A stretch of DNA of 49,736 bases from Tolypothrix carrinoi HA7290-LM1 (GCA_019358935.1 JAHHIK010000062.1:1-49736); one strand, 5' to 3'; shown: positions 10,651 through 32,868, counted from the stretch's first letter. The notes: a model not told the origin generated them from the sequence alone. A program made the numbers and translations.

Positions 10651-10679
10651 TTTATGCAAAAACCCTTATTTCTTTACAA
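10651..10679 (-). promoter_or_regulatory. Shared upstream motif, copy 1 (TTGTAAAG...TTTGCATAAA)
   Basis: 21/29 identical, same spacing, to 16350-16378; related to 16820-16849. Confidence 0.55.
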
Positions 10680-10714
10680 AACTTCATTCACCGCAGAAGA
10701 GGGAGCCGCAACAA

Positions 10715-11494: not shown

Positions 11495-11559
11495 AATTAA
11501 GTGTCCAAATGCCGATATGACTATATAACATCAAGACACAATACCTGTATTTCGGAATT

Positions 11560-13860: not shown

Positions 13861-13926
13861 AGACCCATTTGAAATTTGGGATTTTGGAGTATCAAAATAA
13901 CACTACCAAATTGTGAAAGTTTTTTA

Positions 13927-14595: not shown

Positions 14596-14665
14596 ACTTA
14601 GTCAAATCCTTAATAATTGAAACATGACTATTACAAACTGCACCAATCATTTCGGATTCTGACCT

Positions 14666-15625
14666 TTAGGTTATAAAAAGCTCTGTAAAGCTGACATCAC
14701 CTAAAGCAACTTTAACGCTAAAACGTTCTCCAATTTCGCTGCTAAAGTTTAATTGAATACTCTTTGTGTTTCTCGCAGTTGCCTGCATGACTGCTATTCC
14801 AGCTTCATCCAATACTAGAAGTTCAAGTTCTGATGGCAAGTAATTTTGACCACCAGTTGGGTACACTTTGATGCCGATATTTATTTCTTCTCTTGAGACT
14901 GGAAACAGTCCTACCACTAAAGCGATTTGCTGACTTTTTGAATTTCGTCCTAAGTCCAGAAGTTTACCTTTCTGTAGACTATAAGTTGAATTTTCTGGAT
15001 GAAGAGCTAAAGTCTGTTCAGTCCCTCTAAATCTAAAAACTAGTTCTGATTGTTGCGGATTCAAAAGCGATTCTATAGTCTGCCAACTAGCATCAACAAC
15101 ATTCATCAACCACTGGCTCAGCTGAATTGGCTGTTTAACTTTTTCAATTGGTTGCTTCAGGTGTATAAGGAAATCTTCAAGGGAACCCAACTGGCTTAGA
15201 AGTAACTCACCATCATCAGGAACTGTTTTAACAAATCCCAGTAGTGTTGCTTCTTCAAGCGATGACTCAAACTGTACAGCTACATAGCCAATTCTATCTG
15301 AACAAACTTCTGGTATAATATGAATAATTTGCTCATTAGGTAACACCGAGAGGCACTCTATTTTCCCGAAACCAATAACTTCTAAATCAGCAATATCCAT
15401 GAGAGTTTGTATGACTGGGTGACAACTTAAACTTGCTTGCCAAGAAGTTTGAATTCCCATACAACGCAGATAAAATTGGACAGCAAATACTGCCAAAGTA
15501 TTGAGATAAACCTGTTTGGCTTTCTGAGGATTCCTATGTTTCTTTCGGAAACGTTCTGCAAGTGCGTGAGCTTCTAAGCTTACCGGTACCGTAAAGGTTA
15601 AAGATTCTGATATATTTCCTCTCAT
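14666..15625 (-). CDS. DUF1822 family protein
   Basis: KAKQVYLNTLAV.AV..YL, DRIGYVAV, ATLLGF, LSQW and GERFSVKV motifs. Confidence 0.85.
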   Translation of the reverse strand: MRGNISESLTFTVPVSLEAHALAERFRKKHRNPQKAKQVYLNTLAVFAVQFYLRCMGIQTSWQASLSCHPVIQTLMDIADLEVIGFGKIECLSVLPNEQIIHIIPEVCSDRIGYVAVQFESSLEEATLLGFVKTVPDDGELLLSQLGSLEDFLIHLKQPIEKVKQPIQLSQWLMNVVDASWQTIESLLNPQQSELVFRFRGTEQTLALHPENSTYSLQKGKLLDLGRNSKSQQIALVVGLFPVSREEINIGIKVYPTGGQNYLPSELELLVLDEAGIAVMQATARNTKSIQLNFSSEIGERFSVKVALGDVSFTELFIT

Positions 15626-15640
15626 TTGTACACCTATTCC

Positions 15641-16291
15641 TTAATCGACCTGATTCTCACAATATTCTTTTAACTTGGAAGATAGCTTTTTTATACATCG
15701 GTAATAGAAGCTGCTCACTGTAGGAACTTTCATTTCAAATTCTGCTGAAATCTCTTTCCATGATTTTCCGGACATTCTGAGCATAGCTAATGCTTGAAAC
15801 GTTGCTTGGGGACATTTCTCTATATACTCATTTTTGAAAATGTCTTCTGGGTCTGATTCTATACATTGCTTGACGATTTCTGTGAGGTCTTTTGATTCTG
15901 TTGGTAAGGCAAGATTATCTAGGTCAGTAATGGTCATTTTTGTTACGGAACAATGACTTAGGTTTTGACGAAGAGTATCTTTAAAAAATCGTCGTGACAA
16001 AAGAACATTGACCCATACCAAAACCGTACCGCGTTCCGGGTCGTACTTATCAATATTTTGACAAATATAAAGGAAAAGTTCCTGACGTGCTTCATTGTAA
16101 ATATCTTGAACATTGCTGAAAAATTGATTTTTGGATGGATACCAAAGATTGCCAAAGCGCACAATGCTGTGAATTAGCTTTGTTAAAGCGATTTGCCGTT
16201 CCTGAGAATGTGGCGGGTGTCGCTGCGCAACAGAAGCAAGCTGTAGTAAATACGAATCAAGTTCATCTCTCCTCATTACTTGAGACTCCAA
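15641..16291 (-). CDS. Divergent sigma-70/ECF-like factor
   Basis: Region-2-like YNEARQELFLYICQNIDKYDPERG...WVN and region-4 HTH (GKSWKEISAEF...TVSSFYYRC). Confidence 0.75.
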   Translation of the reverse strand: MESQVMRRDELDSYLLQLASVAQRHPPHSQERQIALTKLIHSIVRFGNLWYPSKNQFFSNVQDIYNEARQELFLYICQNIDKYDPERGTVLVWVNVLLSRRFFKDTLRQNLSHCSVTKMTITDLDNLALPTESKDLTEIVKQCIESDPEDIFKNEYIEKCPQATFQALAMLRMSGKSWKEISAEFEMKVPTVSSFYYRCIKKLSSKLKEYCENQVD

Positions 16292-18102: not shown

Positions 18103-18490
18103 GCTCAATGGCATACGAAGTATTGACGAGGCTGGAGGTTTACCAGTGGCGAGAGTCCTTCGGACACGCTGCGCGAACGCCCTGCCTGGGAAATCTCTGC
18201 CAGCACTGGTGTAATTTTTAACGTAGTTCCAGCCCGTCGCGCTACCCAAACTGACCCATTGTGGTTTTGTGGAGTGCTTAGCAAAGAAGTCCCGTCAATC
18301 CTGAGTAAAAGAATAAATGTCCTACTTTACGGCAAAATTTTCCATTGAAATGGGGTATGGGGGCACTTAAACTTAATGCTTTAGGGCATATAAATTTGTT
18401 GAACTAATCAATAGTCCATAGTTGTGTTGTTCTCTGGCTAGTTAGGTTGTTCCCGTTGCATATACATTAGGTTATTTCGCAACAACTCTT

Positions 18491-20314
18491 ATGTTTAAAG
18501 AAGTGCTGGACGTTGTACGTAGCTACACAAAAACTTTCTGCCGTTCTCTACCATTTTTGTGGACAGCAGCACCAAGAGAAACAATCTTGATGATCGCTGG
18601 TGTGTTGTTACAGGGAATTGTTCCCGCGCTGAGCGTCTGGATTACCAAGCAAGTGGTAGATGCAGTGGCAATAGCTTTAAACCAAGGGAAAGAAATTAGC
18701 TCAGTACTCCTCGCTAGCTTGGTAGCTGCATGGGTTGGGGCTTTACTACTAGAGGTTCTCCTGCGACCTTGGATGTCAGCAATTCAGGGAAATTTGGGTG
18801 AAAAGCTAACAGCTCACATCAACTTGCTTTTGATGCGTAAAGTTGACACTTTTCCCGACTTGAACCGTTTTGAAGACCAAAAGTTTTATGACGAGCTACG
18901 GATTCTCCAGGAACAAGTAAACTACCAGCCAATGAATTTTATTGGAAATTTGGCTCAGGGAGGCAGCAGTTTGTTCACTTTGGTAACTATGGTAGTGCTG
19001 CTATTCCCACTTGGGTTTTGGATTCCGTTTGTGATTATTATTACAACCCTACCCCAGATATATGTTTCCTTCCAGTATGAAATGATCATTTGGGGAGCCA
19101 TGTATGAGAAAAGTCCAGAATCTCGGCGGATGCAGTACTGCTCTTCAGTAATGCTTACTGATACCTACGCTAAGGAAGTGCGCTTGTTTAAGCTTGGTCC
19201 GTTGTTTATTAGTCGATATGTCAAAGAATTTCAGTCTTTGCATCAAACTATGCGCCACTTGCGGGGGAAACAAGCTTTTTGGGCGGCGCGTTTGTCTGTG
19301 ATGAGTGCTTTGGGGAATGGCTTTGCCTTTTATTGGGTGGTGCAGCAGGCTTTTAGAGGGGAAATTAGCCCAGGAAGTGTACTCCTTTTTGTGCAATCAC
19401 TAGCTTACCTCCAGCAGAATCTAGAACAGTGTATCGCTGTCTCCTTAACTACCTTTGAGACTCTACTCTATATGCAGCAGTTTTTTGGTTTCTTGGAGAG
19501 CCAACCAATAATGCCTGTGTGCATTCCGGGTAAACCAGTACCTGTTCCCATGCGATCGGGTATCACTTTTGATAAAGTACACTTTTGCTATCCAGACAAT
19601 CGGTCTGCGGTTGTAGACGTTTCCTTTACCCTGGAACCAGGTGAAACAGTAGCCCTCGTAGGAGAAAATGGGGCAGGCAAGACCACCCTAGTAAAGCTAC
19701 TGACGCGGTTATATGACCCTACAGAGGGAGCAATTGTGATTGATGGTGTAGACCTAAGGGAATTAGACTTGGATGCATGGCGGCAAAATATTGCTGCGGT
19801 GTTTCAAGACTTTAGCCGCTATGCACTCACACTGGGAGAGAACATTGCTTTGGGAGACATTGCAGCGCTGAATGACTCAGAACGCCTCAGACGTGCAGTC
19901 CAAAAAGCTGGTATTGCGGAACTAGTCGAAAAGTTTCCGCAAGGAGATCTCACTCCTCTGGGCAAGCAGTTTGGCGGCACAGAACTGTCTGGAGGAGAGT
20001 GGCAAAAGTTAGCGATCGCCCGAGCTTTCATGCGAGAAGAAGCCCAACTACTCATTCTTGATGAGCCGACAGCTGCCCTTGACCCCCGGAGCGAGTATGA
20101 GGTCTACCGCCGCTTTGTTGAACTAGCTCAAGGTAAGACTACGCTTTTAATCACCCACCGACTGGCTTCTGTACGCATGGCTGACCGCATCTTAGTTTTG
20201 AAATCCGGGCGACTTATCGAAGAGGGCACCCACCAGGAACTTTTGCGACGTGGAGGTGAGTATGCCCAGCTTTGGAATATGCAAGCCCAGCAATATGGTG
20301 CTCAAATAATTTGA
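18491..20314 (+). CDS. ABC exporter, fused permease/ATPase (lasso-peptide D-type)
   Basis: About six TM helices, Walker A GENGAGKT, signature LSGGEWQK, Walker B LLILDE; directly upstream of the cyclase. Confidence 0.9.
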   Translation: MFKEVLDVVRSYTKTFCRSLPFLWTAAPRETILMIAGVLLQGIVPALSVWITKQVVDAVAIALNQGKEISSVLLASLVAAWVGALLLEVLLRPWMSAIQGNLGEKLTAHINLLLMRKVDTFPDLNRFEDQKFYDELRILQEQVNYQPMNFIGNLAQGGSSLFTLVTMVVLLFPLGFWIPFVIIITTLPQIYVSFQYEMIIWGAMYEKSPESRRMQYCSSVMLTDTYAKEVRLFKLGPLFISRYVKEFQSLHQTMRHLRGKQAFWAARLSVMSALGNGFAFYWVVQQAFRGEISPGSVLLFVQSLAYLQQNLEQCIAVSLTTFETLLYMQQFFGFLESQPIMPVCIPGKPVPVPMRSGITFDKVHFCYPDNRSAVVDVSFTLEPGETVALVGENGAGKTTLVKLLTRLYDPTEGAIVIDGVDLRELDLDAWRQNIAAVFQDFSRYALTLGENIALGDIAALNDSERLRRAVQKAGIAELVEKFPQGDLTPLGKQFGGTELSGGEWQKLAIARAFMREEAQLLILDEPTAALDPRSEYEVYRRFVELAQGKTTLLITHRLASVRMADRILVLKSGRLIEEGTHQELLRRGGEYAQLWNMQAQQYGAQII

Positions 20315-20528
20315 CGGAACTGTTTGGCACTCAGCAAAACCGAAGGAATATCCCATTTCATCGAGAGATTTTCCATTGAGACTGAGCTTCGCAACCTTTA
20401 AATTTAATAGTGTGATTAATGACTCCAATTGTAGATATCACTTCTGTTTAGCAATAATTTTTTGCGTGCCAAGAAAATCTTGTGCAACAAGATTAATTCA
20501 CCTGATTAGTAATAGCAGGAAAAAACTT

Positions 20529-22427
20529 ATGAAACGTTGGTTTTGTGGCTTATCATCAGCAATTGATAGTTCTGAAGCAAATCTTCCTAAACCCCTGGAT
20601 GGAGAAATGCTTTGGCAAGGAGTAAATCCCTTTTGGGTATGTGGAAATTGGGGAAAACAGCAAATTATTACGCTTTTTGAAGGTCCTGTCCGGTTGGCTA
20701 TAGTTGGTACTTGCCTAGAACCTTATGAGAGTTTGGTTGAATTGTTCCACAACGCTGTTAGAAGTCACGATTACAGCCGACTGATGAGATTACCAGGGAG
20801 CTATAACCTAATTGTGCAAGAAGAGGCTGACACTTATGTATTTACAGATATAGCTGGTCTTAGACCTGCGTTTTATGCAGAATATGGATCTTGTATTGCT
20901 TACTCCTCCTTGGGTGTCCCTTTACAACAATTGATCAAGGCAGAAGTAGATCCGTGCTGGCTTGCTAATTCTTTAATAGGTTTTAGAGCACCAAACTTAG
21001 TACAAAATCGCTCTCCTTTTCGCAATATACAGGCTGTTCCACCTGGTCACTATTTACAAATAACTTCCGGCAAACCGACGTGTAAGCGTTATTGGAATGC
21101 ACCGCAGGAATACAGTAGCTTCTCTGAGGCGGCTGAACAGTTGCGTGAGCAGCTACTAACTGCTGTCGAAGGTAGAGTTCGCTTATACGGCAATGTAACT
21201 AGCGACTTGAGTGGTGGTTTTGATTCAACCAGTTTGGCTCTAATAGCAGCAAAGAGCCTAGGGACGCAGGGTCATAACTTACATACAATAACCATTAAAG
21301 GCACTTCCTCTACTGAATCTGAAGACGTTAGATGGGCGAAGCACGCAGCTAGTCTTTACCCAAACATTGAATCTGTGATGATTGAGAGTCACGAGTATCC
21401 TGCGGAGTTGAGTGACCTGGAGTCAATCCCCCTGACAGATGCACCAGATCCAGTCGTATTTTCTCTAGGTTTAATTAGCTACTCGATGGGAGTTGTCAAG
21501 TCGAAAGGATCGAAACTTCATATGAGTGGGGAGGGTGGAGATCCAGTTCTTGCATCACATCCTTCCTATTTAGCAGATTTACTAAGACGTGCACAGGTAG
21601 GAGTATTTCTCCAGCACACTTATGGGTTGTCCCGAGTCAACAACTTGTCGCCAATCGCCTTAATGAGTAGTGCTGTAAGACTCAGTATTACTTCATATCG
21701 TCAGTGGCTACTTCAACAAGCTAAAAAAATTTTGACTGGACAATCGCATCAGCCGCTTAGAAGCAAGGAATCTATAAGTGCAGTCATAGGATGGCATTAT
21801 GCTTTGAATCCTGCTGCATGGTATACAAAAAGTTTTGTGGATTTAGTTGTAGCACAGCTACAGAGGTGGGCAACAGTTGCAACTCCTCTTACCGACTCTC
21901 CTGGGGAACATAGTTCTATAGATTTGATACAAAGGACTGGATTCACCAGCTTAGTTCAGCAGCAGGTAGCTGAAACTTATGATGTCAATTTAGAATTTCC
22001 CTATTTTGATTCGTTAGTAATTGATGCCTGTTTTAGTGCAAAGCCAGAGGAGCGGACAACTCCATTTGCATATAAACCGCTTCTCTCTAGAGCACTTGAG
22101 CGCGATTTACCGAAGAGTATTTTTACACGGACTAGCAAAGGTGATTACACAGGGGGTGAATTTGTCGGACTCCAACAAAATCTGCCGATAATCAATGAAG
22201 TTTTTCAGACCTCTTTCTTAGCTGATATGGGTCTGATTGATATCAGAGAACTTCGTAATTACATGGAACAGCTTAGTATGGGACTCGCTGCTTGTTCATT
22301 CCATTTCAATCAAACGCTGGCAATTGAGCTTTGGTTGCGCCGCGTGGCAGATGCTAGGAATAGTTTCTGGGAGCATTCGACTTTTGCAAATGTACCGCCA
22401 GAGGGGAATTTACAGACAGCATTCTAG
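20529..22427 (+). CDS. Lasso-peptide cyclase 1 (asparagine-synthetase-like, C protein)
   Basis: SDLSGGFDST ATP-binding motif, SGEGGD, PYFD, KPLL, R.SKGDY; no N-terminal Cys. Start MKRWFCG set by alignment with 24617. Confidence 0.9.
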   Translation: MKRWFCGLSSAIDSSEANLPKPLDGEMLWQGVNPFWVCGNWGKQQIITLFEGPVRLAIVGTCLEPYESLVELFHNAVRSHDYSRLMRLPGSYNLIVQEEADTYVFTDIAGLRPAFYAEYGSCIAYSSLGVPLQQLIKAEVDPCWLANSLIGFRAPNLVQNRSPFRNIQAVPPGHYLQITSGKPTCKRYWNAPQEYSSFSEAAEQLREQLLTAVEGRVRLYGNVTSDLSGGFDSTSLALIAAKSLGTQGHNLHTITIKGTSSTESEDVRWAKHAASLYPNIESVMIESHEYPAELSDLESIPLTDAPDPVVFSLGLISYSMGVVKSKGSKLHMSGEGGDPVLASHPSYLADLLRRAQVGVFLQHTYGLSRVNNLSPIALMSSAVRLSITSYRQWLLQQAKKILTGQSHQPLRSKESISAVIGWHYALNPAAWYTKSFVDLVVAQLQRWATVATPLTDSPGEHSSIDLIQRTGFTSLVQQQVAETYDVNLEFPYFDSLVIDACFSAKPEERTTPFAYKPLLSRALERDLPKSIFTRTSKGDYTGGEFVGLQQNLPIINEVFQTSFLADMGLIDIRELRNYMEQLSMGLAACSFHFNQTLAIELWLRRVADARNSFWEHSTFANVPPEGNLQTAF

Positions 22428-22575
22428 TGAAAACAGATGACGAAAGCTCCCGATGGAGGGCTAAGTGTCTGGAAGCTTGCATGTGAGAATTTTCAGGCGC
22501 AACACTTAGCTTTCACACATTAATGCGTTTTAAGCCACTTCAACTGAAGTTTTAGGAACAAAAGGAGAAAATAAC

Positions 22576-22845
22576 ATGGAACAAATTTGCATTCCACCGC
22601 ACGTTTCTACAACCTTTTTTAAGGATACTGCTGTAATATTAGATGCGCGAACAAACGTCTACCACGCATTAAATAATACTGCTGCCGATTTTTGGAAATA
22701 CCTAATGCAAAATGGTTCGTTCGAGAGTGCGCTCAATGAGGTGTTGGAATTGTATGACTATTCTTCAGATCTGATTAGAGAAGATATGGAGGATCTTGTT
22801 CGCTCCCTTCTTCATGCTGGACTACTTAAGAGGGTGCAAAGTTAA
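22576..22845 (+). CDS. RiPP recognition element (PqqD-like, lasso B1)
   Basis: 89 aa; AVILD....YHALN.TA..FW..L and D...LV..L..AGLL; AGGAG Shine-Dalgarno site. Confidence 0.88.
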   Translation: MEQICIPPHVSTTFFKDTAVILDARTNVYHALNNTAADFWKYLMQNGSFESALNEVLELYDYSSDLIREDMEDLVRSLLHAGLLKRVQS

Positions 22846-22927
22846 CTATAACTCAATCGAAAAATACAATGCCACCCTAACAAGATGTTGGCAACCGACC
22901 TTCTCATTATCAAACTGGAGAAATATC

Positions 22928-23347
22928 ATGAACACTGAGATGACGCTACAAACAATCAGTTTTAAGCTAACTTTGATAGAACGTTTGAAGGGTATATTTG
23001 CTGTAATCATTGCTTATATAGCTTTACGTTGTCTATCACTTTCAATGATCTGTAAAATTGTCGGTGTAGTAAAGCGTCTCTGCTCGCGTGAGATAGACGT
23101 TGAAGAAGCAGATATCGCGTGGGCGGCAGTGCGTCAGTCCAGCTTTTTCTTTTTAGGAAGGGTAGCCTGCCTAGAGTTATCATTGGCATTTGTTCTTTTT
23201 GCTCTCACTAAGGGTCTATCGGCAACGTGCTGTGTAGGTGTGGCAAATGAGCCATTTCGAGCACATTCATGGGTTGAGCTTAGTGGAAAACCCTTCCGTG
23301 AGCCTGACTATGTAGAACAGGATTTTAGTAAGTTGTTTGCAATCTAA
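22928..23347 (+). CDS. Lasso-peptide leader peptidase (transglutaminase-like, B2)
   Basis: ACLELSLA (Cys) and GV...PFRAHSWVE (His/Glu). Start chosen at MNTEM. Confidence 0.88.
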   Translation: MNTEMTLQTISFKLTLIERLKGIFAVIIAYIALRCLSLSMICKIVGVVKRLCSREIDVEEADIAWAAVRQSSFFFLGRVACLELSLAFVLFALTKGLSATCCVGVANEPFRAHSWVELSGKPFREPDYVEQDFSKLFAI

Positions 23348-23535
23348 CTAGGTAAAGTAAATTAAACATAATACTTACTACCTTAAAAACCCAATCTCTT
23401 TAAGAAACTGGGTTTCTCGATTTTTCGGTTTGTTTAAAGTTTATATACTTGACAAGAAGTGTAAGTTTGTTATGCTGCTCCTCTATGCATACATATGAAA
23501 CTTAACTCTTCAATTTGCTAAATAACAACACAATT

Positions 23536-23564
23536 ATGAGCTGTTGATTACCTCAACAGCCCAT
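23536..23564 (-). terminator. Stem-loop downstream of precursor A1
   Basis: Minus strand ATGGGCTGTTGA-ggtaa-TCAACAGCTCAT, 12-bp stem with one G-U pair. Confidence 0.55.
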
Positions 23565-23604
23565 GATTACAGTGCTACATTCTCCTAATCAAAAAGTTGA
23601 TAGA

Positions 23605-23730
23605 TTAGAAGAAAACTCTACCTCTATTGAAAATTATCTCACGTCGATTCAGAACATCGGCTGCCAATGTCGCCTTAATTGCATCACCCATTTGAATTAG
23701 TTGGGGTTTAGAGTATTGCTTCTTAGTCAT
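23605..23730 (-). CDS. Lasso-peptide precursor A1: MTKKQYSKPQLIQMGDAIKATL-AADVLNRREIIFNRGRVFF
   Basis: Translated by hand, 41 aa; leader YxxPxLxxxG and Thr at -2; Glu at core position 9; GAGGA Shine-Dalgarno site; leader nearly identical to A2. Confidence 0.88.
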   Translation of the reverse strand: MTKKQYSKPQLIQMGDAIKATLAADVLNRREIIFNRGRVFF

Positions 23731-23789
23731 GGCTTTATCCTCGAAAAGATTTACGTTTGTTTGTAGTTGAATTCGTCAACCACACTTTT

Positions 23790-23818
23790 AATTTAAGAGG
23801 TTATTAACTCAAATTCAA
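23790..23818 (-). promoter_or_regulatory. Putative sigma-70 promoter of precursor A1
   Basis: TTGAAT-17 nt-TAAATT on the minus strand; the TAAATT and a following small hairpin are retained upstream of A2. Confidence 0.4.
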
Positions 23819-24007
23819 TGGAAAATCTTGCGGTAGGATGGGATATTTCTTTGGTCTTGCTGAGTATTTTTGAAACTGATTATAAGTACTATGCAAAGAT
23901 TAATTAGATGTAGTTAAACGGTGCTACAAGCTGAAATTAATTACCCTATTTCTGCCAGAGACACTCATTGCAAAGCAGCCTGACAACAGGAATTTGACGG
24001 TGCTTAT

Positions 24008-24267
24008 TCAAGCCGCAGTTACATGACCCAACTCCTCTGGAGCGAGATAGGGATGAACCACCTGCCCATCTTTGCACCAGATGACTCTATGGGTACAACG
24101 GGCAACCTCTGGCTCATGAGTGACTACAACTACCGTCATACCACTAGCGTTTAACTGGGTGAAGATATGGAGGATTTCTCGAGTAGTATGAGAGTCCAAT
24201 GCGCCAGTGGGTTCGTCTGCAAGCAGGAGAACAGGGCGATTGACAATAGCACGGGCGATCGCCACTC
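24008..24267 (-). pseudogene. Duplicated 3' fragment of the efflux ABC ATPase
   Basis: Highly similar to the last ~85 aa of 27187-27894; no Walker A. Confidence 0.85.
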
Positions 24268-24298
24268 AGGTTGTTAGCAGTCTAACAATAATGTGAGA

Positions 24299-24403
24299 CG
24301 GCTGATTAAAGAGGGCATCCACCAGGAACTTTTGCGACGCAGAGGAGAGTATGCCACGTTTTGGAATATGCAAGCCCAGCAATATGGTGCTCATATAACT
24401 TGA
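24299..24403 (+). pseudogene. Duplicated 3' fragment of the lasso ABC exporter
   Basis: RLIKEGIHQELLRRRGEYATFWNMQAQQYGAHIT* matches 20210-20314. Confidence 0.85.
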
Positions 24404-24616
24404 GGAACCGTTCGGCACTCAGCAAAACCGAAGGAATATCCCATTTTATCGAGAGATTTTCCATTGAGACTAAGTCTTACACCCCTGTAAGTTAATAGTA
24501 TAGGCGATGACTCCAATTGTAGATATCACTCCTGTTTTGTAACAAGTTTTTGAATCACAAGAAAACCTTGTGCAATAAGATTAATTCACTCGATTAATAA
24601 CAGCAAGAAAAAATAT

Positions 24617-26452
24617 ATGAAACGTTGGTTTTGTGGCTTCTCATCAGTAATTGATAGTTCTCTAGCAACCCTTCCTCAACCGCTTGATGGAAAAATGCTC
24701 TGGGAGGGGGCGAATTCCTTTTGGGTGTGCGGAAATTGGGCAAAACAGCAAATTATCACGCTTTTTGAAGGTCCTGTTAAGCTGGGTATAGTTGGTACTT
24801 GCCTAGAACCTTATGAGAGTTTGGTGGAATTGTTCCAGAACGCTGTCAAAAAGCACGACTACAACCGACTGATGCGCTTGCCTGGTAGCTATAACCTGAT
24901 TGTTCAAAACGAGGCTGATACATATGTCTTTGTAGATGTGGCTGGTCTTAGACCAGTGTTCTATACAGAGTATAATTCTTGTGTTGTTTACTCCTCCTTA
25001 GGTGTTTCTTTACAACAGTTGATCAAGGCAGAAGTAGATCCGTGCTGGCTTGCTAATTATTTAGTAGGTCTTACAGCACCAAACTTAGTACAAAATCGCT
25101 CTCCTTTTTGCAATATACAAGCTGTTCCCCCTGGTCACTATTTGCAAATATCTTTAGATAAAGCAACCTGTAAGCGTTATTGGCATGGACCACAGGAATA
25201 CTGTAGCTTTTCTGAAGCCGCTGAACAGTTGCGTGAACAGCTATTAACTGCTGTCGAAGGTAGAGTTCGCTTATACGGCAATGTAACTAGCGACTTGAGT
25301 GGTGGTTTTGATTCAACCAGTTTGGCTCTAATAGCAGCAAAGGACTTAGCGAAGCAGGGGCAGAAGTTACATACAATAACCTTGAAGACCGTTTCAGCTA
25401 CTGAGTCTGAAGATGTTAAATGGGCACAGCATGCAGCTAGTCTTTACCCAAACATTGCACCTGTGATGATTGAGAATCATGAGCTTCCTGGGGAGTATAG
25501 TAATTTGGAGTCAATTCCTCTAACAGATGCACCAGAACTGGTCCTCACTTGTATAGGCCAAATCAGCAAGTTAATGGAAATTATAAGGTTGAAAGAATCT
25601 CAACTTCATATGAGTGGAAACGGTGGAGATGCAGTTCTTTTAGCCCCTCCTTCATATTTGGCAGACCTGTTAAGACGGGCACAGATAGGAACCTTTGTCC
25701 AACAAAGTTATGGGTGGTCTCGAATCAGCCATTCGTCGGTAGTAGACTTAATGAGTAGTGCCGTAGAACTGAGTCTAACTTCATATCATCAGTGGTTACT
25801 TCAACAATATAAAAAGCTTGTGGCTGGACAACTATCGTCCCAGCAGCTGATGAACCAGTTTATGGGATGGGATTTTCCTCCGGATGTCAGTAGTTGGTAT
25901 ACAAAAAAATCTGTGGATTTAGTTGTAGCAGATTTACAGACGTGGGCAACAGTCGCAACACCTTTTGCCGACTCTCCTGGGCAACATGAATCTATAGCGG
26001 TGATCCAATTGAACGGAATCGGTGCCAGAGTGCAGCAGCAGATAGCTGAAACTTATGATGTCAATTTAGAATTTCCCTATTTTGATTCTTTGGTAATTGA
26101 TGCCTGTCTCTGTGCAAGACCGGAGGAGCGCACAAATCCATTTAAATACAAACCGCTCCTCTCTAAAGCGCTGCACCGCGATTTGCCGCAGAGTATTTTT
26201 ACACGCACGACTAAAGGTAATTATACAACTGATGAGTTTATTGGCTTCCGGCAAAATCTGGCTGTCATCAACGAATTATTCCAGACTTCCCTCTTGGCTG
26301 ACATGGACTTGATTGATATAAGGGAGTTCCATGCTGCCATGAAGCAGTTTAGTATGGGAATTGCTGCTATTTCGCCAAATTTCTCTAAGACACTGGCAAT
26401 TGAACTCTGGCTACGCCGTGTGGTGGATGCTAGTAATAGTTTCTGGATATGA
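24617..26452 (+). CDS. Lasso-peptide cyclase 2
   Basis: Full-length paralog of 20529-22427; SDLSGGFDST, SGNGGD, R.TKGNY. Confidence 0.9.
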   Translation: MKRWFCGFSSVIDSSLATLPQPLDGKMLWEGANSFWVCGNWAKQQIITLFEGPVKLGIVGTCLEPYESLVELFQNAVKKHDYNRLMRLPGSYNLIVQNEADTYVFVDVAGLRPVFYTEYNSCVVYSSLGVSLQQLIKAEVDPCWLANYLVGLTAPNLVQNRSPFCNIQAVPPGHYLQISLDKATCKRYWHGPQEYCSFSEAAEQLREQLLTAVEGRVRLYGNVTSDLSGGFDSTSLALIAAKDLAKQGQKLHTITLKTVSATESEDVKWAQHAASLYPNIAPVMIENHELPGEYSNLESIPLTDAPELVLTCIGQISKLMEIIRLKESQLHMSGNGGDAVLLAPPSYLADLLRRAQIGTFVQQSYGWSRISHSSVVDLMSSAVELSLTSYHQWLLQQYKKLVAGQLSSQQLMNQFMGWDFPPDVSSWYTKKSVDLVVADLQTWATVATPFADSPGQHESIAVIQLNGIGARVQQQIAETYDVNLEFPYFDSLVIDACLCARPEERTNPFKYKPLLSKALHRDLPQSIFTRTTKGNYTTDEFIGFRQNLAVINELFQTSLLADMDLIDIREFHAAMKQFSMGIAAISPNFSKTLAIELWLRRVVDASNSFWI

Positions 26453-26681
26453 AGGGATTGGTATAGATAGCTTTTACTTCTTTTTTTACGAAACTGCTGT
26501 ACTATTAGACTCTAGAAAAAATGTTTACTATACTTTGAATGATAGCGCCGTTGAGTTTTGGAAATTCCTAGTGCAGAACGGTTCATTTGAGTGTGTGCTC
26601 AAAGAAGTGTTGGAATTATATGAAGATTCTTCAGATGTTATCAGCAAAGAGCAGTTGTATTCACAGCCACTTAATGCTTAA
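26427..26681 (+). pseudogene. Degenerate second RRE (B1) copy
   Basis: ETAVLLDSRKNVYYTLNDSAVEFWKFLVQNGSFE aligns with 22576-22845; native N-terminus and last helix are missing; no B2 copy follows. Confidence 0.75.
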
Positions 26682-26718
26682 GCAGAAGTTTCCCAGTCAA
26701 GGGGAAACTTCTGCTTAA
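26678..26718. terminator. 17-bp perfect inverted repeat between convergent units
   Basis: TTAAGCAGAAGTTTCCC-agtcaag-GGGAAACTTCTGCTTAA. Confidence 0.7.
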
Positions 26719-26788
26719 TTAAACTGTATTGCTCTAATTAAGGAAAGCAGTTTAGATCTTATCGGCTGGAAGATCCTTTTACTTACTA

Positions 26789-26911
26789 CTAAGGTCGGAT
26801 AAATGTACGCGCTCCAAACAAGTCGCGGTACCGCCCAAATATCCCCAATGTTGCCTTAATCGCATTACCAACCTCAATTAATTCGGGTTTAGAGTATTGC
26901 TTCTTAGTCAT
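26789..26911 (-). CDS. Lasso-peptide precursor A2: MTKKQYSKPELIEVGNAIKATL-GIFGRYRDLFGARTFIRP
   Basis: Translated by hand, 40 aa; YxxPxLxxxG leader, Thr at -2, core Gly1 and Asp8; AAGGA Shine-Dalgarno site; stacked stops TAG TAG TAA. Confidence 0.92.
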   Translation of the reverse strand: MTKKQYSKPELIEVGNAIKATLGIFGRYRDLFGARTFIRP

Positions 26912-27186
26912 GTTTTTATCCTTCAAAAGTTTAGGTTTATTTGTAGTTGAAATGCTCAGCTACACTTCTAAATTTAAGAGATTATAAACTCAAAAACATT
27001 GGAAAATATTGCGCTATGATAGGATATTTCTTCGGTCTTGCTAAGTAGTCTTGAAACTGATGATAAGTACTCTGCCAAAAAATAATTAGATCTAGTTGGA
27101 CGGCGCTGCAAGCTAACACTAATTACGCCATTTCTGCCACTCATTGCAAGGTAGTTTAACAATAACGTGAGTTCGAGGATGCTTAG

Positions 27187-27894
27187 TTAAACCGCAGTTA
27201 CATTACCCAACTCCTCTGGAGCAAGATAGGGATGAACCACCTGCCCATCCTTAAACCAGATGACGCGCTGGGTACAACGGGCAACCTCTGATTCATGAGT
27301 GACCATAACCACTGTCATACCACTAGCATTTAACTGAGTGAAGATATTGAGGATTTCTTTTGTGGTATGAGAGTCCAATGCGCCAGTAGGTTCGTCTGCT
27401 AGCAGGAGAACTGGATTATTGACAATAGCACGAGCGATCGCCACTCGTTGTTGCTGTCCACCCGATAGCTGATTGGGTTTATTGTGCAAGCGTTTTTCCA
27501 GTCCCACTCGCATCAACGCCTCAGTTGCCCAATCTCGCCGTTCGTCTAGGGGAACGCCCGCATAGACCATCGGTAGCATGACATTCTCCAGAGCACTCAA
27601 CTGGGGCAATAGGTGAAACTGTTGAAAGACAAAACCCAGTTTCAAATTACGGATGTGAGCCAAATCTTTGTCACCCAGATGGGCAACATTCACCCCATCC
27701 AAGTAGTAGCTTCCAGAAGAGGGGTGATCTAAGCAGCCAATGACGTTCATCATCGTGGACTTACCCGAGCCAGAAGCTCCCATAATGGCGCAATATTCTC
27801 CTGCTTCTACAGTCAAATTGACACCAGCAAGAGCATGAACTGTGGTTTCTCCAGAACCATAAACTTTTGTGATGTTTTTTAAGTGAATGCTCAT
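27187..27894 (-). CDS. ABC ATPase, MacB/LolD-like
   Basis: [34 protein letters not shown]. Confidence 0.92.
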
Positions 27895-27896
27895 GG

Positions 27897-29102
27897 TTAT
27901 GCACCTCTCAACGCAGCAATAGGATCAAGCCGAGCTGCTTGTCGCGCCGGTGCAACACCGAAAATTAAACCAATGCTACCGGAAACGCCTGCTGCTAACA
28001 AGATTGCCCCCACGGGTACTGTCGGTTTCAAAGGGGTCAAGATACCAACAATAAGTGCACCACTGACGCCAATGCCTGTGCCAATTAAGCCTCCTGCTAC
28101 TGAGAGGATAATTGCCTCAATCAAAAACTGCGTGAGGATTGCCTGTTGAGTTGCTCCTATTGCCTTCCGTAGTCCAATTTCCTGTGTACGCTCTGTTACA
28201 GACACCAACATAATGTTCATGATGCCAATACCACCAACTAATAAGGAGATACCTGCTATTGATGCCAAGACTAAGCTCAAAGCTCCCGTCACCTGACTGA
28301 CTAAGTCTTGAACCGACTTGTTTGCGGCAACCATAAAGTCTTTCTTGCCATGTCTGCGCGTGAGAATGTTGGTGGTTTGGAAAGCTGCTGCCCGGACGCT
28401 AGCTTTGTCCTTGGCAGAAAGTTCTAGGTAGTCAATGGGAATGCCATTGGGCGATCGCCTTCCTGCTAACTGACCTGCCATAGTAGTAATAGGCACGTAG
28501 GCTATCTCATCGGGATTATTACCCATGAAAGCTCCTTTGGCTTGCATCACCCCAACCACTTGAAAACTTAAGTTATTCATCTGCACTGACTGACCAAGAG
28601 GATTTTCGCTACCAAAGAGTTTGCGTGCGACTGCTGGTCCTAAGATGACAACTTGGGCATTTTGCTGTTGCTCAATGCGGTCAAAAAAGCGCCCCTGGCG
28701 AACACGTAGGTTTCGCACATAAAGAATTCCCGATGTTGTACCTGTTACATTTACTTTACTTATGCGTCCCTGACGGGATAATTGCAGGTTGCTACTAATC
28801 TGCGGGGCGGCTTCCTGGACGGCAGGTGCCTGCGTTGCTATTGCCTCAGCATCTGCCAAAACCAGTTGTGCAACCTCAGTGTTCACTCCCTCCGCATTCT
28901 CCCCTCCAGGAAAAACAGAGAGTTGATTTGGTCCAAAGGACTCCAACTTTTGCTGAGTAAACTGCTGTGCGCCTTGCCCGATAGCAACCATCGCAATCAC
29001 GGAGGCATTGCCAATGATAATACCGAGCATGGTGAGTGTACTACGGAGTTTGTTGGCAGTGAGCGTTTTAACTGCCATATTTGTACTTTCAAGTAGGTTC
29101 AT
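27897..29102 (-). CDS. ABC permease, MacB/FtsX-like
   Basis: LRSTLTMLGIIIG; GGIGIMNIMLVSVTERTQEIGLRKAIGA; PA..AARLDPI.ALR. Confidence 0.92.
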   Translation of the reverse strand: MNLLESTNMAVKTLTANKLRSTLTMLGIIIGNASVIAMVAIGQGAQQFTQQKLESFGPNQLSVFPGGENAEGVNTEVAQLVLADAEAIATQAPAVQEAAPQISSNLQLSRQGRISKVNVTGTTSGILYVRNLRVRQGRFFDRIEQQQNAQVVILGPAVARKLFGSENPLGQSVQMNNLSFQVVGVMQAKGAFMGNNPDEIAYVPITTMAGQLAGRRSPNGIPIDYLELSAKDKASVRAAAFQTTNILTRRHGKKDFMVAANKSVQDLVSQVTGALSLVLASIAGISLLVGGIGIMNIMLVSVTERTQEIGLRKAIGATQQAILTQFLIEAIILSVAGGLIGTGIGVSGALIVGILTPLKPTVPVGAILLAAGVSGSIGLIFGVAPARQAARLDPIAALRGA

Positions 29103-29335
29103 GGTTTTGGTTTATGGGGATTCTTACATCTTGCACTTGGGAAAATAAATGTCAAAGTCATTACATATTATTTGACTCCGTTCTCGTCACGGGACTGTAA
29201 GTCCCGCCGCTTATAGCCGAAGTCCATTTTAAGGGACTGAAACTGGAACTAATTCATGAGTATATTTAAACACTATTTAATGCAAATATTAGTGGTTTAC
29301 TCGTAATGGTGCAAGATATTAGGATTGAAACAAAA

Positions 29336-30679
29336 CTAAAATCCAACAGTATCTACGCCCTCAATTTTTTCGTTGCTTGGAGGAGATATAAACACGCGAT
29401 CGCCCTTTTTCAGACCTTCTAACACTTGAACTTGGTCACCACTAGCTGCGCTCACCTTAATAGGTTGGAGCCGTGCCGTAGTTTTTTCATCAGCGACATA
29501 CACCCCTGTTTGACCATTAGGCTGAGTCACAACCGCAGCCAGGGGAATCACCAAGGCATTCTTAATTGGCTCACCCAGGAATGTGAGACTCATGTTCATC
29601 CCTGACTTGAGCTTTGCCTGCCCGGTAGAGAGTGCCACTTTCACCCGAAAGGAGGTAATATTGTTTTCTTGCACAGCCCTAGGTGCAATTAGGCTAACCT
29701 GTCCCTTAAAAGTTTCGTTAGAATAGGTGTCTGCTTGAATATTTACAGTCTGACCTGAATGAATTTTAGAAATGGTGGCTTCAGGAATTTTGGCTTCAAT
29801 TTCTAAGCCACTGGAGAGTTCAGCAATGGAGGTGGACGTTGCTCCTTCATTGGAAGAGGCTGATGTGGTAGGTGTGACGAAATCTCCCTCTTGAGCAAAG
29901 CGGCGGGTGATGATGCCTGCAAAAGGCGCACGAATAACCGTATTGTTGAATTGGCTTTGATAAAAAGCAAGTTGAGCTTTTGCCTGAGCCACTTCGGCTT
30001 CTGCTTGAGCAATTTCCTCAGGGCGCAGTCCGTTGCGGGCTTTTTTCAAACTCTCTCCCTGTTCCTTGAGTCGCGCTAGCTCTGCTTCCAAATTTGCCTT
30101 AGCTTCCCGTTGTTTAGCAATAAACTCTCCAAAGGCGTTCCGGGAAATTGCACCCTCTTGAGCTGGGATTTGATTACGTTTGAGTTCTTCTGTTGCACGG
30201 TTTAGCCTTGCTTGGGCTGCTGCTACAGATGCTGAGGCAGAAGCAACTCTGGCTTTTGCCTCAGCAATTTCTTCAAGACGAGTTCCAGAGCGCTTTAGTT
30301 CTAAGTCAGCCACAGCTTTTTCCAGTGATGCTAGATACTGATTGACCTGCGCCTGGACTTTCTCGCTACTCATACGGGCAATGATTTGTCCTTTGGTAAC
30401 GCGATCGCCCTCAGTCACATATAGTTTGGCAATGCGTCCAGAATCTTCTGGACTTAGGTTAATTTTTCGCACAGCTTGCACCACCCCGTTGGCTTGGATT
30501 TGTACCACCCAATCTTTAGTTTGTACCAATACAGTTTGGTTAGCTAGGTCTTGCTGAGAGGAAGTGTCTTCGGTCTTCAGGTAAACTAAAGTTGTGATGG
30601 TTCCTAAAGCTCCGATGAGCATGATTGCGGGTATCCAGAGATTTAGCTTCTTGACCCGACTCAACGGTAAAATTTGCAT
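29336..30679 (-). CDS. Efflux membrane-fusion protein (MacA/HlyD family)
   Basis: N-terminal TM, lipoyl half-motifs (V.EGD.V.KGQ; IRAPFAG), long coiled coil. Confidence 0.9.
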   Translation of the reverse strand: MQILPLSRVKKLNLWIPAIMLIGALGTITTLVYLKTEDTSSQQDLANQTVLVQTKDWVVQIQANGVVQAVRKINLSPEDSGRIAKLYVTEGDRVTKGQIIARMSSEKVQAQVNQYLASLEKAVADLELKRSGTRLEEIAEAKARVASASASVAAAQARLNRATEELKRNQIPAQEGAISRNAFGEFIAKQREAKANLEAELARLKEQGESLKKARNGLRPEEIAQAEAEVAQAKAQLAFYQSQFNNTVIRAPFAGIITRRFAQEGDFVTPTTSASSNEGATSTSIAELSSGLEIEAKIPEATISKIHSGQTVNIQADTYSNETFKGQVSLIAPRAVQENNITSFRVKVALSTGQAKLKSGMNMSLTFLGEPIKNALVIPLAAVVTQPNGQTGVYVADEKTTARLQPIKVSAASGDQVQVLEGLKKGDRVFISPPSNEKIEGVDTVGF

Positions 30680-30922: not shown

Positions 30923-32203
30923 GTGAACCGTCTTCTGCAACTTAAAACCCATCCTTTTCGTTTACTGCTCTACTTGGAATGGATTTTGTTGATAATTACA
31001 GTTCTGGGTGAGCTACCGTGGGAAGACATTCCCTACCTAGAAACACTGCTGGGAGAGTCTTATAATAGACCAAAACTGCTTCCGTACTCTTGGCTGCTAA
31101 ATATATTTTGCATTGTAGGATTCGGGTTAATGGGGTTGCGGTTGCCAAGGGGTACAACCGCAAGTAAATGGCTTTACACGGCGCTGGAATTGGGAATAAT
31201 CTGGCTCGTAAATGCCCTGGGAAGCTGGCGTATATCTTTTCTGTCTCCTTATCTAATTGTCGTCATCCGCAGTTGCCTAATTTTTAAACCAACGGGACGA
31301 CTGTTAGCTACTGGATTGATCTTTATTTCTTTCTTGCTATCACTGGTAATTTCGGTAAAGGATCTTCCAGCGATTCAACTGGAACTGACACAACCCAAAC
31401 CTGTAACGCTCAATGAAATTAGGATTTGGTTTATTATTAGTAGTATCAACACAGCATTTTTGTTTGGATTGGTGTTGGTATTTGTTTTAATGCTGGTGAA
31501 TGCGTTGCTGGCAGAACGTCAAAGTCGGCAAAAACTGACACTCGCCCACGACCAGTTACGCGAATATGCCTTACGGATAGAAGACCAGGCGACTTTACAG
31601 GAGCGTAACCGAATTGCCCGCGAAATTCATGATTCCTTGGGTCATGCAATGACGGCTCAAAGTATTCAGTTAGAAAATGCGTTGTTATTTTGTCACTCCA
31701 ACCCAGATAAAACCCAAGCATTTTTGACCGAAGCCAAGCAATTGGTAGCAACAGCTCTCAAAGAGATTCGTCAATCAGTCTCTAGGCTCCGGTCTGACTC
31801 ATTGCAAGGGAGAACTCTAGAATCAGCCCTCGCTACCCTGATTCAAGACTTTTACAAAAGGACGAACATCACCCCAGACAGCAAAATCAGCCTGACTTAT
31901 CCGCTGACGGCTGAAGTTATGACTGCTGTCTATCGCATTGTTCAAGAAGCCTTAACGAATATCTGCAAACACAGTGATGCAACACAAGTTACCCTTCAGT
32001 TGCAAACGATACATAGACATTTACATCTGCTGATTTCTGATAATGGTAGAGGCTTCAACCCAGAACAAAACACAACGGGTTTTGGACTTCAGGGAATGCA
32101 AGAAAGAACGGTAGCCCTGGGAGGTCATTTCAAGCTAGCAAGTGAAATAGGAAAGGGTTGCCGTGTCACTGTTGAGATTCCACTTGTGAAATTTCTGCCA
32201 TGA
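30923..32203 (+). CDS. Membrane sensor histidine kinase (HisKA_3, NarX/DesK type)
   Basis: Multiple TMs; [34 protein letters not shown]. Confidence 0.92.
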
Positions 32204-32868
32204 TTCGCTTGTTGCTAGTAGACGACCAAATTATCATTCGCCAAGGACTCAAGAGCTTACTAGAGTCTAAGCCAGACTTACAGGTGGTTGGAGATGCCGA
32301 AAATGGTCAACTGGCACTGGATCTGCTTGAGTCCCTACAGGGAACACCGCTACAACCGGATGTGGTGTTGCTGGATGTGCGGATGCCCGTAATGGATGGT
32401 GTAGCAGCGACCCAGCAAATTTACCAACGCTTTCCTCTGACGCAGGTTCTGATTTTGACCACCTTTGATGACGATGAATATGTTTCGCAGGCAATGCGCT
32501 TTGGGGCGAAGGGGTACTTACTCAAAGATACTCCGTCAGAGGACTTGGCGATGGCTATTCGGGCAGTTTACCAAGGTTACACTTATCTTGGACCCGGACT
32601 GTTTGAAAAAGCACTTCCACACCAAAGCACTGCTGCTCCCGTTAAGCCAGCCATTCCTCCTGAATTAGCGGATCTGTCGCCTAGGGAGTGGGAGGTATTG
32701 CGGTTAATTGCTTCTGGAGCGAGCAATCGTGAAATTGCACAGGCACTTTACATCTCAGAAAGAACTGTAAAAAATCATGTTACCAGTATTTTGAGTAGGT
32801 TAGGTTTACGCGATCGCACCCAAGCAGCGCTTTTTGCCAGTTCGTTCCTTCCCCTGCTGGATGCTTAG
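32200..32868 (+). CDS. NarL/LuxR-family response regulator
   Basis: LLVDD, DVRMP, GYLLKD; HTH LSPRE.EVL.LIA.G.SN.EIA. Confidence 0.93.

What the first reader, a model, noticed from the sequence alone, without database searches (positions are those of the whole stretch)
18491..26911. Cyanobacterial lasso-peptide cluster with two hidden precursors, two cyclases and one shared RRE/peptidase
Seen: exporter, cyclase 1, RRE, peptidase, cyclase 2, and two 40-41 aa minus-strand ORFs below the ORF-track cutoff. Their 22-aa leaders are 18/22 identical (MTKKQYSKPxLIxxGxAIKATL) while the cores are unrelated. Established: a YxxPxL leader, Thr at -2 and Asp/Glu at core position 7-9 define lasso precursors. 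Inference: one B1/B2 pair processes both leaders and each cyclase closes its own core. I do not recognise either core as a characterised lasso peptide.
Basis: partly seen in the sequence, partly recalled or inferred. Interest (0 to 1): 0.92.

Follow-up and report, generated by a model that had tools for sequence, protein, structure and literature searches.

The report
Twin-cyclase cyanobacterial lasso peptide cluster
A cyanobacterium carries two different versions of a lasso-peptide gene cassette side by side; the second has lost its leader-binding and leader-cutting genes but kept its own knot-tying enzyme and peptide, so it probably borrows the first cassette's helpers, which makes it a convenient natural pair for testing how these enzymes choose their peptide.

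Summary
In detail: exporter, cyclase C1, RRE, peptidase, cyclase C2 and two 40-41 aa minus-strand precursors with 18/22 identical leaders. The region is two ~4-kb cassettes in tandem (81-83% nt). Unit 2 holds a start-less RRE remnant, has no peptidase, and is joined to unit 1 through exporter and ATPase stubs. C1 and C2 are not sister duplicates (AU p=9e-5). C1 sits in a clade whose four loci with DNA context all encode A1-like Glu-ring cores. C1 and C2 differ mainly in the C-terminal domain, while the ATP loop is identical. This supports shared RRE/peptidase with one cyclase per core (A1 Ala1-Glu9, A2 Gly1-Asp8), by inference only. Cyclases outnumber RREs in 3 of 5 multi-cyclase genomes. Against: A2's putative -35 box is degenerate, no transcript of this locus was seen, and the family-wide cyclase-core correlation depends on the C1 clade. 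The family is already catalogued as unnamed predictions (at least 9 rows, LassoPred); A1 and A2 are not listed there. Verdict: real, a new architectural variant of a known class, less surprising than 0.92.

The parts
18308..18379 (+). Copy of the shared upstream (promoter-like) element in front of the exporter
   Evidence: nhmmer E=1.7e-4; alignment
18491..20314 (+). MsbA-like ABC exporter (lasso D protein), 607 aa
   Evidence: 90-96% identical in syntenic loci L006, L008, L010, L013, L016
20329..20428 (+). Shared upstream element in front of C1, ending in a -35/17/-10-like site
20529..22427 (+). Lasso cyclase C1 (albusnodin-type macrolactam cyclase), 632 aa; predicted partner of A1
   Evidence: NF033561 above cut-off; motifs SGGFDS 228, GEGGD 334; clade with A1-like cores
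22576..22845 (+). RRE / B1, 89 aa; the only intact family RRE in the genome
   Evidence: Pfam PqqD
22928..23347 (+). Leader peptidase B2, 139 aa, Cys..His-x-x-x-Glu motifs visible; the only family B2 in the genome
   Evidence: NF033537 above cut-off, PF13471; motifs read from the translation
23605..23730 (-). Precursor A1: 22-aa leader + 19-aa core AADVLNRREIIFNRGRVFF; predicted Ala1-Glu9 ring; cyclised monoisotopic mass 2274.25
23767..23865 (-). Shared upstream element in front of A1
24008..24265 (-). 3' stub (codons 151-234) of the MacB/LolD-type ATPase; right end of unit 1
   Evidence: 90% aa to 27187-27894; 7.5 stub-specific non-synonymous changes against 1 and 2 in the intact copies
24293..24403 (+). 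3' stub (codons 574-606) of the exporter; left end of unit 2; unit junction at about 24276-24298
24417..24516 (+). Shared upstream element in front of C2 (-10-like site at 18-bp spacing)
24617..26452 (+). Lasso cyclase C2, 611 aa, 73% identical to C1; predicted partner of A2
   Evidence: NF033561 above cut-off; intact motifs; AlphaFold2 pLDDT 91.1; separate lineage
26481..26651 (+). RRE remnant (matches residues 14-70 of 89). Its own start and first codons are deleted, the C-terminal ~19 residues and the following peptidase gene are absent; an in-frame upstream start exists inside the end of C2
26789..26911 (-). Precursor A2: 22-aa leader + 18-aa core GIFGRYRDLFGARTFIRP; predicted Gly1-Asp8 ring; cyclised monoisotopic mass 2123.15
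26947..27046 (-). Shared upstream element in front of A2; the only one of 15 aligned copies without TTG at the -35-like position
27187..30679 (-). MacAB-type tripartite efflux genes (ATPase, permease, membrane-fusion protein), conserved right flank
30923..32868 (+). HisKA_3 sensor kinase and NarL/LuxR response regulator, conserved with the locus in L006, L010, L013, L016
17185..18102 (+). PAS-AraC regulator on the left flank (also in L008, L010, L013, L016, in part in L010 and L016); candidate regulator of the shared element, untested

Best explanation
This is a lasso-peptide locus where relatives carry one swappable cassette (cyclase-RRE-peptidase plus precursor) between a conserved exporter and conserved efflux/two-component genes. 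This genome carries two different alleles of that cassette in tandem. Because the family leader is nearly invariant, the second RRE and peptidase were redundant and were deleted. The second cyclase was not redundant, because cyclases are matched to the acceptor residue and loop of their core. Working model: the single RRE binds the YxxPxL motif of both leaders, B2 cuts after Thr-Leu, C1 closes Ala1-Glu9 of A1 (19 aa), C2 closes Gly1-Asp8 of A2 (18 aa), and the shared exporter secretes two cationic Arg/aromatic lasso peptides. All five transcription units share one promoter-like element. SHOWN: gene content, tandem structure, RRE remnant, separate cyclase lineages, location of divergence, shared upstream element. 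INFERRED: processing, cyclase-core pairing, ring positions, co-regulation, origin by uptake of a second allele. An antagonistic (antimicrobial) role is a guess from charge, export and hypervariability.
For: Tandem units 20220-24275 and 24309-27452. G003 (same genus) has one cyclase, 87% to C1. Syntenic loci keep the exporter at 90-96% while the cyclase ranges 57-87%. C1+C2 as sisters is rejected, p-AU 9.4e-5 on 23 of the 85 tree rows. C1 lies in a 100*-supported 12-row clade. The 4 outside members with DNA context (L005, L007, L013, L022) all encode Glu-acceptor cores with an A1-like loop; the best are 14/19 identical to A1. C1 vs C2: N-domain 81.5%, C-domain 69%; C1 vs L022 (A1-like core): 79% and 85%. 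Residues 301-330 are 47% identical between C1 and C2 but 93% between C1 and L013 or L022, while the ATP loop 211-240 is 100%. C1/C2 dN/dS is 0.33, like other family pairs (0.19-0.42); RRE remnant 0.46 against its closest RRE versus 0.11-0.19 between intact RREs. Cyclases outnumber RREs in 3 of 5 multi-cyclase genomes: G000 2:1, G371 3:1, G154 2:1; not in G155 3:3 or G152 2:2. L009 is a second two-cyclase locus with one RRE. L005 and L019 have an intact cyclase and precursor with no RRE/B2 hit at E<0.05.
Against: No experiment and no transcript of this locus; the RNA runs held only relatives' contigs. A2's -35-like hexamer departs from all 14 other copies. The family-wide cyclase-core correlation (partial Mantel r=0.44, p=0.0008, 17 pairs) falls to r=0.23, p=0.065 with one C1-clade member left and r=0.18, p=0.14 with none, and kin are not independent. 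No close relative of C2 was fetched with its core, so the C2-A2 pairing rests on adjacency and exclusion; the most A2-like local cores (L010, L009b) go with cyclases only 60-62% like C2 in the C-domain. Single cyclases serve different cores elsewhere: L013 has Ala1-Glu9 and Gly1-Glu8, L006 has three cores, and caulosegnins I-III (8- and 9-residue rings) use one enzyme set (PMC13352647, passage). That C2 is still open is only modest evidence: P(no nonsense codon) is 0.17-0.01 for an assumed 2-5% neutral drift, and dN/dS mostly reflects the time before the tandem formed.
Confidence: 0.62

Rival explanations
1. Unit 2 is a dying cassette: RRE and peptidase went first, and C2 and A2 are intact only because not enough time has passed; only A1 is made.
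For: Two deletions already hit unit 2. A2's -35-like site is uniquely degenerate, 1 of 15. No RNA evidence for this locus.
Against: Both deletions spare C2 and A2 and stop within about 30 nt of C2's stop codon. C2 keeps the catalytic motifs and an open 611-codon frame while the ATPase stub shows relaxed constraint. The same loss pattern (RRE gone, cyclase and precursor kept) occurs in L009, L005 and L019.
Confidence: 0.2
2. Both units are active but the cyclases are promiscuous: either closes either core, and the second cyclase adds dosage rather than specificity.
For: One cyclase serves several cores in L006, L007, L010, L013 and in caulosegnins. C1 and C2 are 73% identical, the range in which FusC accepted foreign cores. 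The cyclase-core correlation is weak outside the C1 clade.
Against: Cores that share one cyclase in this family also share the acceptor residue and loop type, whereas A1 (Glu9) and A2 (Asp8) differ in both. C1/C2 divergence is concentrated in C-terminal helices that are conserved within the C1 clade.
Confidence: 0.13
3. A2 (or both precursors) is cleaved by the RRE/peptidase of the genome's other lasso cluster on contig C2, or by a translated RRE remnant, so the 'shared B1/B2' is not the only route.
For: G000:C2:2159-4915 encodes RRE, peptidase and cyclase with two precursors that also carry a YxxPxL motif. An open frame runs through the remnant from an upstream start.
Against: That RRE is only 31% identical and its peptidase is not detected by the family B2 at E<1e-4. 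The remnant lacks most of the last helix, which forms the leader cleft (recalled, not tested). A2's leader is 18/22 identical to A1's.
Confidence: 0.05

Closest known systems
Class II lasso peptide clusters with split B1/B2 and an albusnodin/ikarugamycin-family cyclase (NCBIfam NF033561; e.g. albusnodin, fusilassin-type layout)
   Same: A, C, B1, B2, D gene set; YxxPxL leader with Thr at -2; acceptor at core 8-9; both cyclases above the NF033561 cut-off; A1's nearest solved chain is the fusilassin (TfuA) leader, weakly (E=0.81).
   Different: Two cyclases of separate lineage with one RRE/peptidase; precursors on the opposite strand with their own copy of the promoter element; actinobacterial cyclases are only about 24-32% identical; no acetyltransferase seen in the cluster.
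Predicted, unnamed cyanobacterial lasso peptides in the RODEO/LassoPred set (PMC12214591, supplement file 3)
   Same: At least 9 rows are members of this family (Cylindrospermum, Nostoc-type entries); one core is 14/19 identical to A1. antiSMASH also flags the L018 cluster (PMC8073705 table).
   Different: All 9 rows have empty family and name columns. None of the 12 rows with the QYSKP leader string is A1 or A2. The passages and rows seen say nothing on two cyclases or shared maturases.
Multi-precursor, one-cyclase clusters (caulosegnins I-III)
   Same: Several cores behind similar leaders share maturation enzymes (PMC13352647, PMC13381572; passages).
   Different: There the cyclase is shared too; here the cyclase is doubled and only RRE/peptidase/exporter are shared.
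'Firminodin' predicted family of Bacillota (13 rows in LassoPred file 3)
   Same: Core motif Gly1..Gly-Arg/Lys-Tyr/Phe-Arg-Asp-x-Phe-Gly resembles A2; one row shares GRYRD with A2.
   Different: Nine-residue ring against eight in A2, different leader, unnamed predictions. The cyclases were not compared, so common descent is untested. No paper in the library holds the word.
'lasso_cyano' type (NF033528 precursor, NF033535 cyclase)
   Same: Cyanobacterial lasso clusters; a cluster apparently of that kind lies on contig C2 of this genome (not scanned against NCBIfam).
   Different: Window cyclases score 98-102 bits against a cut-off of 525 for NF033535 and are about 22% identical to the C2-contig cyclase.

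Membership tests
Lasso peptide gene cluster | Asparagine-synthetase-like macrolactam cyclase with intact ATP loop | tested here: met
   NF033561 above cut-off for both; SGGFDS and GxGGD motifs; fold matches amidotransferase/beta-lactam synthetase/AsnB
Lasso peptide gene cluster | RRE (B1) and transglutaminase-like leader peptidase (B2) | tested here: met
   PF05402 43.9 bits, PF13471 57.9 bits, NF033537 above cut-off; RRE is below the NF033530 cut-off (50 against 70)
Lasso peptide gene cluster | Precursor leader with [Y/W]xxPx[L/V/I] and Thr at -2 | tested here: met
   Both precursors; Y, P, G, T, L invariant in 15 aligned family precursors; motif as given in PMC13381572. A2 matches NF033521 only below cut-off, 14.6 against 19
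Lasso peptide gene cluster | Asp/Glu at core position 7-9 with bulky tail residues | tested here: met
   A1 Glu9, A2 Asp8. 53 of 53 distinct family cores have an acid at 8-10 and 51 have Arg before it; shuffles give means 9.0 and 2.6. Caveat: the cores came from a profile search whose seed included cores
Lasso peptide gene cluster | Threaded macrolactam product (core -18 Da, carboxypeptidase-resistant) | not testable with these tools
   Needs expression, LC-MS/MS and NMR
lasso_cyano type (NF033528/NF033535) | Cyclase above the NF033535 cut-off | tested here: not met
   97.7 and 102.4 bits against 525
Characterised lasso peptides | Core identical to a described peptide | tested here: not met
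   No PDB hit for A2, only a weak leader hit for A1 (chains under 20 residues are not in that library); not in LassoPred file 3. MIBiG itself could not be searched
Firminodin (predicted family) | Gly1-Asp9 ring and firminodin-type leader and cyclase | tested here: inconclusive
   Core motif alike but ring of 8 and another leader; cyclases not compared

The most novel reading that the evidence does not exclude
Filamentous cyanobacteria run an undescribed modular lasso system. A fixed leader plus one RRE/peptidase/exporter/promoter platform accepts interchangeable cyclase+core modules, stacked in tandem or parked elsewhere in the genome and served in trans. The modules yield a large family of hypervariable, strongly cationic lasso peptides (53 distinct cores, median net charge +5) built on an invariant Arg-[Asp/Glu] ring closure, including cores that begin with Arg (11 of 53) and cores whose acceptor falls at position 10 (5 of 53), outside the natural 7-9 range. 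These would be competition peptides diversifying by module exchange, and this window would be a natural orthogonal two-cyclase pair.
Probability: 0.4. Interest if true: 0.72.

Novelty: new variant of a known kind. Interest (0 to 1): 0.5.

Why it matters
What makes a lasso cyclase accept one core and refuse another is an open, actively engineered question, and no lasso cyclase structure was found in the PDB (also stated in PMC13352647). Two 73%-identical cyclases that share leader, RRE and peptidase but face a Glu9 and an Asp8 core give a clean 2x2 test, and the differing segments (about 301-330, 361-480, 571-600) are ready targets for helix swaps. The PDB lasso structures come from three other phyla (PMC12214591) and my searches found no paper with 'cyanobacterial lasso', so these could be among the first characterised cyanobacterial lasso peptides. 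The class and its logic are known, which caps the surprise.

Tried and rejected
Recent in-place duplication of one cyclase: rejected. Two-strain chimeric assembly: not supported (X1 may be the source sample). Gene conversion between the units: one 98-nt identical tract at 21157-21254, but it covers the conserved ATP loop and informative sites do not favour U1=U2 there; not claimed. Generic promoter/terminator scan: 20 and 9 sites against 16.3 and 7.8 expected, uninformative. Plasmid collection: best matches under 60% identity, none of this family among the 20 rows listed of 281. Small-share sequencing runs (0.05-0.10) are no evidence of habitat; only X1, X6, X7, X14 were laid, and X6/X7 look like one data set. 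Relatives' RNA-library contigs cover cyclase-RRE-peptidase (X14, 20419-23308; X6/X7, a C2-like cyclase with RRE and peptidase pieces), but contigs may include DNA and do not show transcription. Mapping variable residues onto the pocket: no model coordinates were in the script box (one search lists the files), so only secondary structure was used. Complex prediction was not run: RRE-leader is a textbook pair and cyclase-core is an enzyme-substrate pair. Literature searches for two-cyclase lasso clusters gave no precedent; the two 'two macrolactam' papers concern other things. Three key papers (Barrett 2025, Tietz 2017, Barrett and Mitchell 2024) were not held and may discuss multi-cyclase clusters. 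One LassoESM supplement (scanned PDF) could not be searched; supplements of the bioRxiv paper were not seen. Our-findings look-ups by words and by sequence were empty.


Full report
OBSERVATION. C1 (20529-22427) and C2 (24617-26452) both pass NCBIfam NF033561, albusnodin/ikarugamycin-family macrolactam cyclase. The peptidase passes NF033537, the RRE matches Pfam PqqD and the exporter is MsbA-like. The two minus-strand precursors have 22-residue leaders identical at 18 positions; a precursor pattern scan of the whole 7.96-Mb genome returned only these two. C1 and C2 are 73% identical and keep the SGGFDS and GxGGD motifs. C2 models confidently (pLDDT 91.1, pTM 0.92) as an asparagine-synthetase/beta-lactam-synthetase fold.

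Self-BLAST shows a tandem: 20220-22370 matches 24309-26446 (81%), 22614-22784 matches 26480-26650 (76%) and 23664-24275 matches 26845-27452 (83%). Unit 1 ends in a 3' stub of the downstream ATPase and unit 2 begins with a 3' stub of the exporter. After C2 lies an RRE remnant matching residues 14-70 of 89. Compared with L008, a deletion removed its ribosome site, start and first codons; a second deletion removed its end and the whole peptidase. The genome therefore has two family cyclases, one intact family RRE and one family peptidase. A ~100-bp element sits upstream of C1, C2, A1, A2 and, more weakly, the exporter. The next genome hit is at E=0.41, and the element recurs in L006, L008, L010, L013 and L016. 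It ends in a -35/17/-10-like site; co-regulation is inferred. A second, unrelated lasso cluster lies on contig C2. Contigs of run X1 bridge the junction without differences at even depth (possibly the source sample).

THE FAMILY. One search returned 113 proteins, of which 78 score above E=1e-140. One search gave 76 loci, 19 of them cyanobacterial; L092 was added. The family cyclase occurs in 12 of 389 same-family genomes and 4 of 401 phylum-wide (G000 included; at most 3 candidates scored per genome). The G-handle hits overlap the L loci and are not counted as independent. Precursors were found in 19 of the 20 outside cyanobacterial loci (none in L008, whose contig ends). A profile search gave 54 precursors with 53 distinct cores. 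All have an acid at position 8-10, 51 have Arg before it (shuffle means 9.0 and 2.6), 47 have only one acid, and the median net charge is +5. This fixes Glu9 (not Asp3) in A1 and Asp8 in A2 as acceptors, by inference. At the syntenic site the exporter stays 90-96% identical while the cyclase ranges from 57 to 87%: a variable cassette in a conserved frame. G003, of the same genus, has one cyclase, 87% to C1.

ORIGIN. In an 85-row tree C1 lies in a 100*-supported clade of 12 and C2 lies outside it with P0002, P0004-P0006 (SH-aLRT 90, unstarred). Forcing C1 and C2 together is rejected (p-AU 9.4e-5; 23 rows chosen from the 85). C1-C2 synonymous distance (0.50) exceeds C1-L013 (0.31). The tandem therefore joins two old alleles, most simply by uptake of a second cassette and recombination in the flanks (inference). 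The window also carries an integrase, an actin-like partition protein and a D5-type primase, which fits mobile DNA but was not followed up.

DOES EACH CYCLASE HAVE ITS OWN CORE? For: all four outside C1-clade loci with context encode Glu-acceptor cores with an A1-like loop, up to 14/19 identical. C1 is as far from L022 as from C2 in the N-domain (79% and 81.5%) but much closer in the C-domain (85% and 69%). Residues 301-330 are 47% identical to C2 and 93% to L013/L022, while the ATP loop is 100%. These segments are helices of the synthetase domain; that they line the pocket is inference. Against: the partial Mantel correlation over 17 outside pairs (r=0.44, p=0.0008) drops to 0.23 (p=0.065) and 0.18 (p=0.14) when the C1 clade is thinned or removed. 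No near relative of C2 was fetched with its core. Single cyclases serve several cores in L006, L007, L010 and L013 and in the caulosegnins (PMC13352647, passage).

IS SHARING REAL AND RECURRENT? Among five multi-cyclase genomes, cyclase:RRE:B2 counts are 2:1:1 (G000), 3:1:2 (G371), 2:1:1 (G154), 3:3:3 (G155), 2:2:2 (G152) (draft genomes). L009 is the only one of the 20 outside loci with two cyclases in tandem; it has one RRE and two peptidases. L005 (21.8 kb) and L019 (whole 8.5-kb contig) hold an intact cyclase and a precursor without any RRE or B2 hit. This is the reverse of the case in PMC13381572 (passages), where two RREs evolved to keep pathways apart.

IS UNIT 2 ALIVE? C1/C2 dN/dS is 0.33, within the family range of 0.19-0.42. 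The remnant shows 0.46 against its closest RRE, and the ATPase stub has 7.5 private non-synonymous changes against 1-2 in the intact copies. For an assumed 2-5% neutral drift, the chance that C2 escapes a nonsense codon is 0.17-0.01: modest support. Against: A2's -35-like hexamer is the only one of 15 lacking TTG, and no RNA of this locus was found.

WHAT IS KNOWN. Lasso biosynthesis, split B1/B2 and multi-precursor clusters are textbook. At least nine family members are rows without family or name in the LassoPred data set, one 14/19 identical to A1. A1 and A2 are not among the 12 rows with their leader string (PMC12214591, supplement file 3; the EYSKP listing was cut at 26 of 34). A2 resembles the predicted Bacillota 'firminodin' cores. 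Searches for a two-cyclase lasso cluster, for 'cyanobacterial lasso' and general listings (titles and abstract starts only) showed no precedent and no characterised member, but the library lacks most subscription journals and three key papers. Papers seen as passages only: PMC13381572, PMC12480086 (plus supplement search, one file unreadable), PMC13352647, PMC8073705, PMC12214591 (plus supplement rows), PMC12070363, PMC11433410, bioRxiv 2020.11.25.399105. That the leader binds between strand 3 and helix 3 of the RRE is recalled, not from a call.

VERDICT. Real feature; lasso cluster by every sequence criterion; product untested. Best model 0.62 (shared RRE/peptidase/exporter, cognate cyclases), dying unit 2 0.20, promiscuous cyclases 0.13, other route 0.05. 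New variant of a known kind; interest 0.5.

Noticed in passing
G000:C2:2159-8650: Second, unrelated lasso cluster: RRE, peptidase, cyclase, two identical 70-aa precursors with Cys-containing cores, a kinase-like ORF and an ABC exporter; a further PqqD-like hit at C2:9649-9858.
   Followed up: partly
window 18308-18379, 20329-20428, 23767-23865, 24417-24516, 26947-27046: Five copies of one promoter-like element with two imperfect repeats about 20 bp apart just upstream of a -35-like hexamer, as expected for an activator site; regulator (PAS-AraC or NarL-type) unknown.
   Followed up: partly
P0139, P0149, P0152, P0164, P0167: Five family cores place Arg-Asp at position 10, beyond the 7-9 natural ring range stated in bioRxiv 2020.11.25.399105; 11 of 53 cores start with Arg.
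   Followed up: no
L011:9517-9663, L018:9205-9402, L020:543-722, L021:3015-3188: Precursors with poly-Arg loops and Gly/His-rich tails.
   Followed up: no
L009:5293-12831; L005:10001-12275; L019:679-3056: Independent two-cyclase, one-RRE locus, and two cyclase+precursor modules without RRE or peptidase.
   Followed up: yes
P0003/P0027 and P0018/P0032: Pairs of cyclases from different clades with equal longest-contig lengths (61455, 5887), possibly further two-cyclase loci; DNA not fetched.
   Followed up: no
L010:9142-9774 and L004, L011-L018: Precursor orientation varies: upstream on the cyclase strand in many loci, downstream on the opposite strand in the window's group; L010 has three upstream precursors with A2-like Gly1-Asp8 cores.
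   Followed up: partly
window 35029-47660: Tyrosine integrase, actin-like partition protein, D5-type primase and a nucleotidyltransferase-HEPN pair; PIN gene at 7498-7902: the contig may be plasmid or other mobile DNA.
   Followed up: no
window 128-16291: Two-partner-secretion/CHAT module (ShlB, TPR-CHAT, TPS domain, DUF928, CHASE2-CHAT, DUF1822, sigma-70-like) with internal repeats shared between 122-1297 and 8813-9869.
   Followed up: no
L023, L026: Nearest non-cyanobacterial cyclases (34-39% to C2) are from Bacillota; one has a similar leader pattern; long branches, placement unsure.
   Followed up: no
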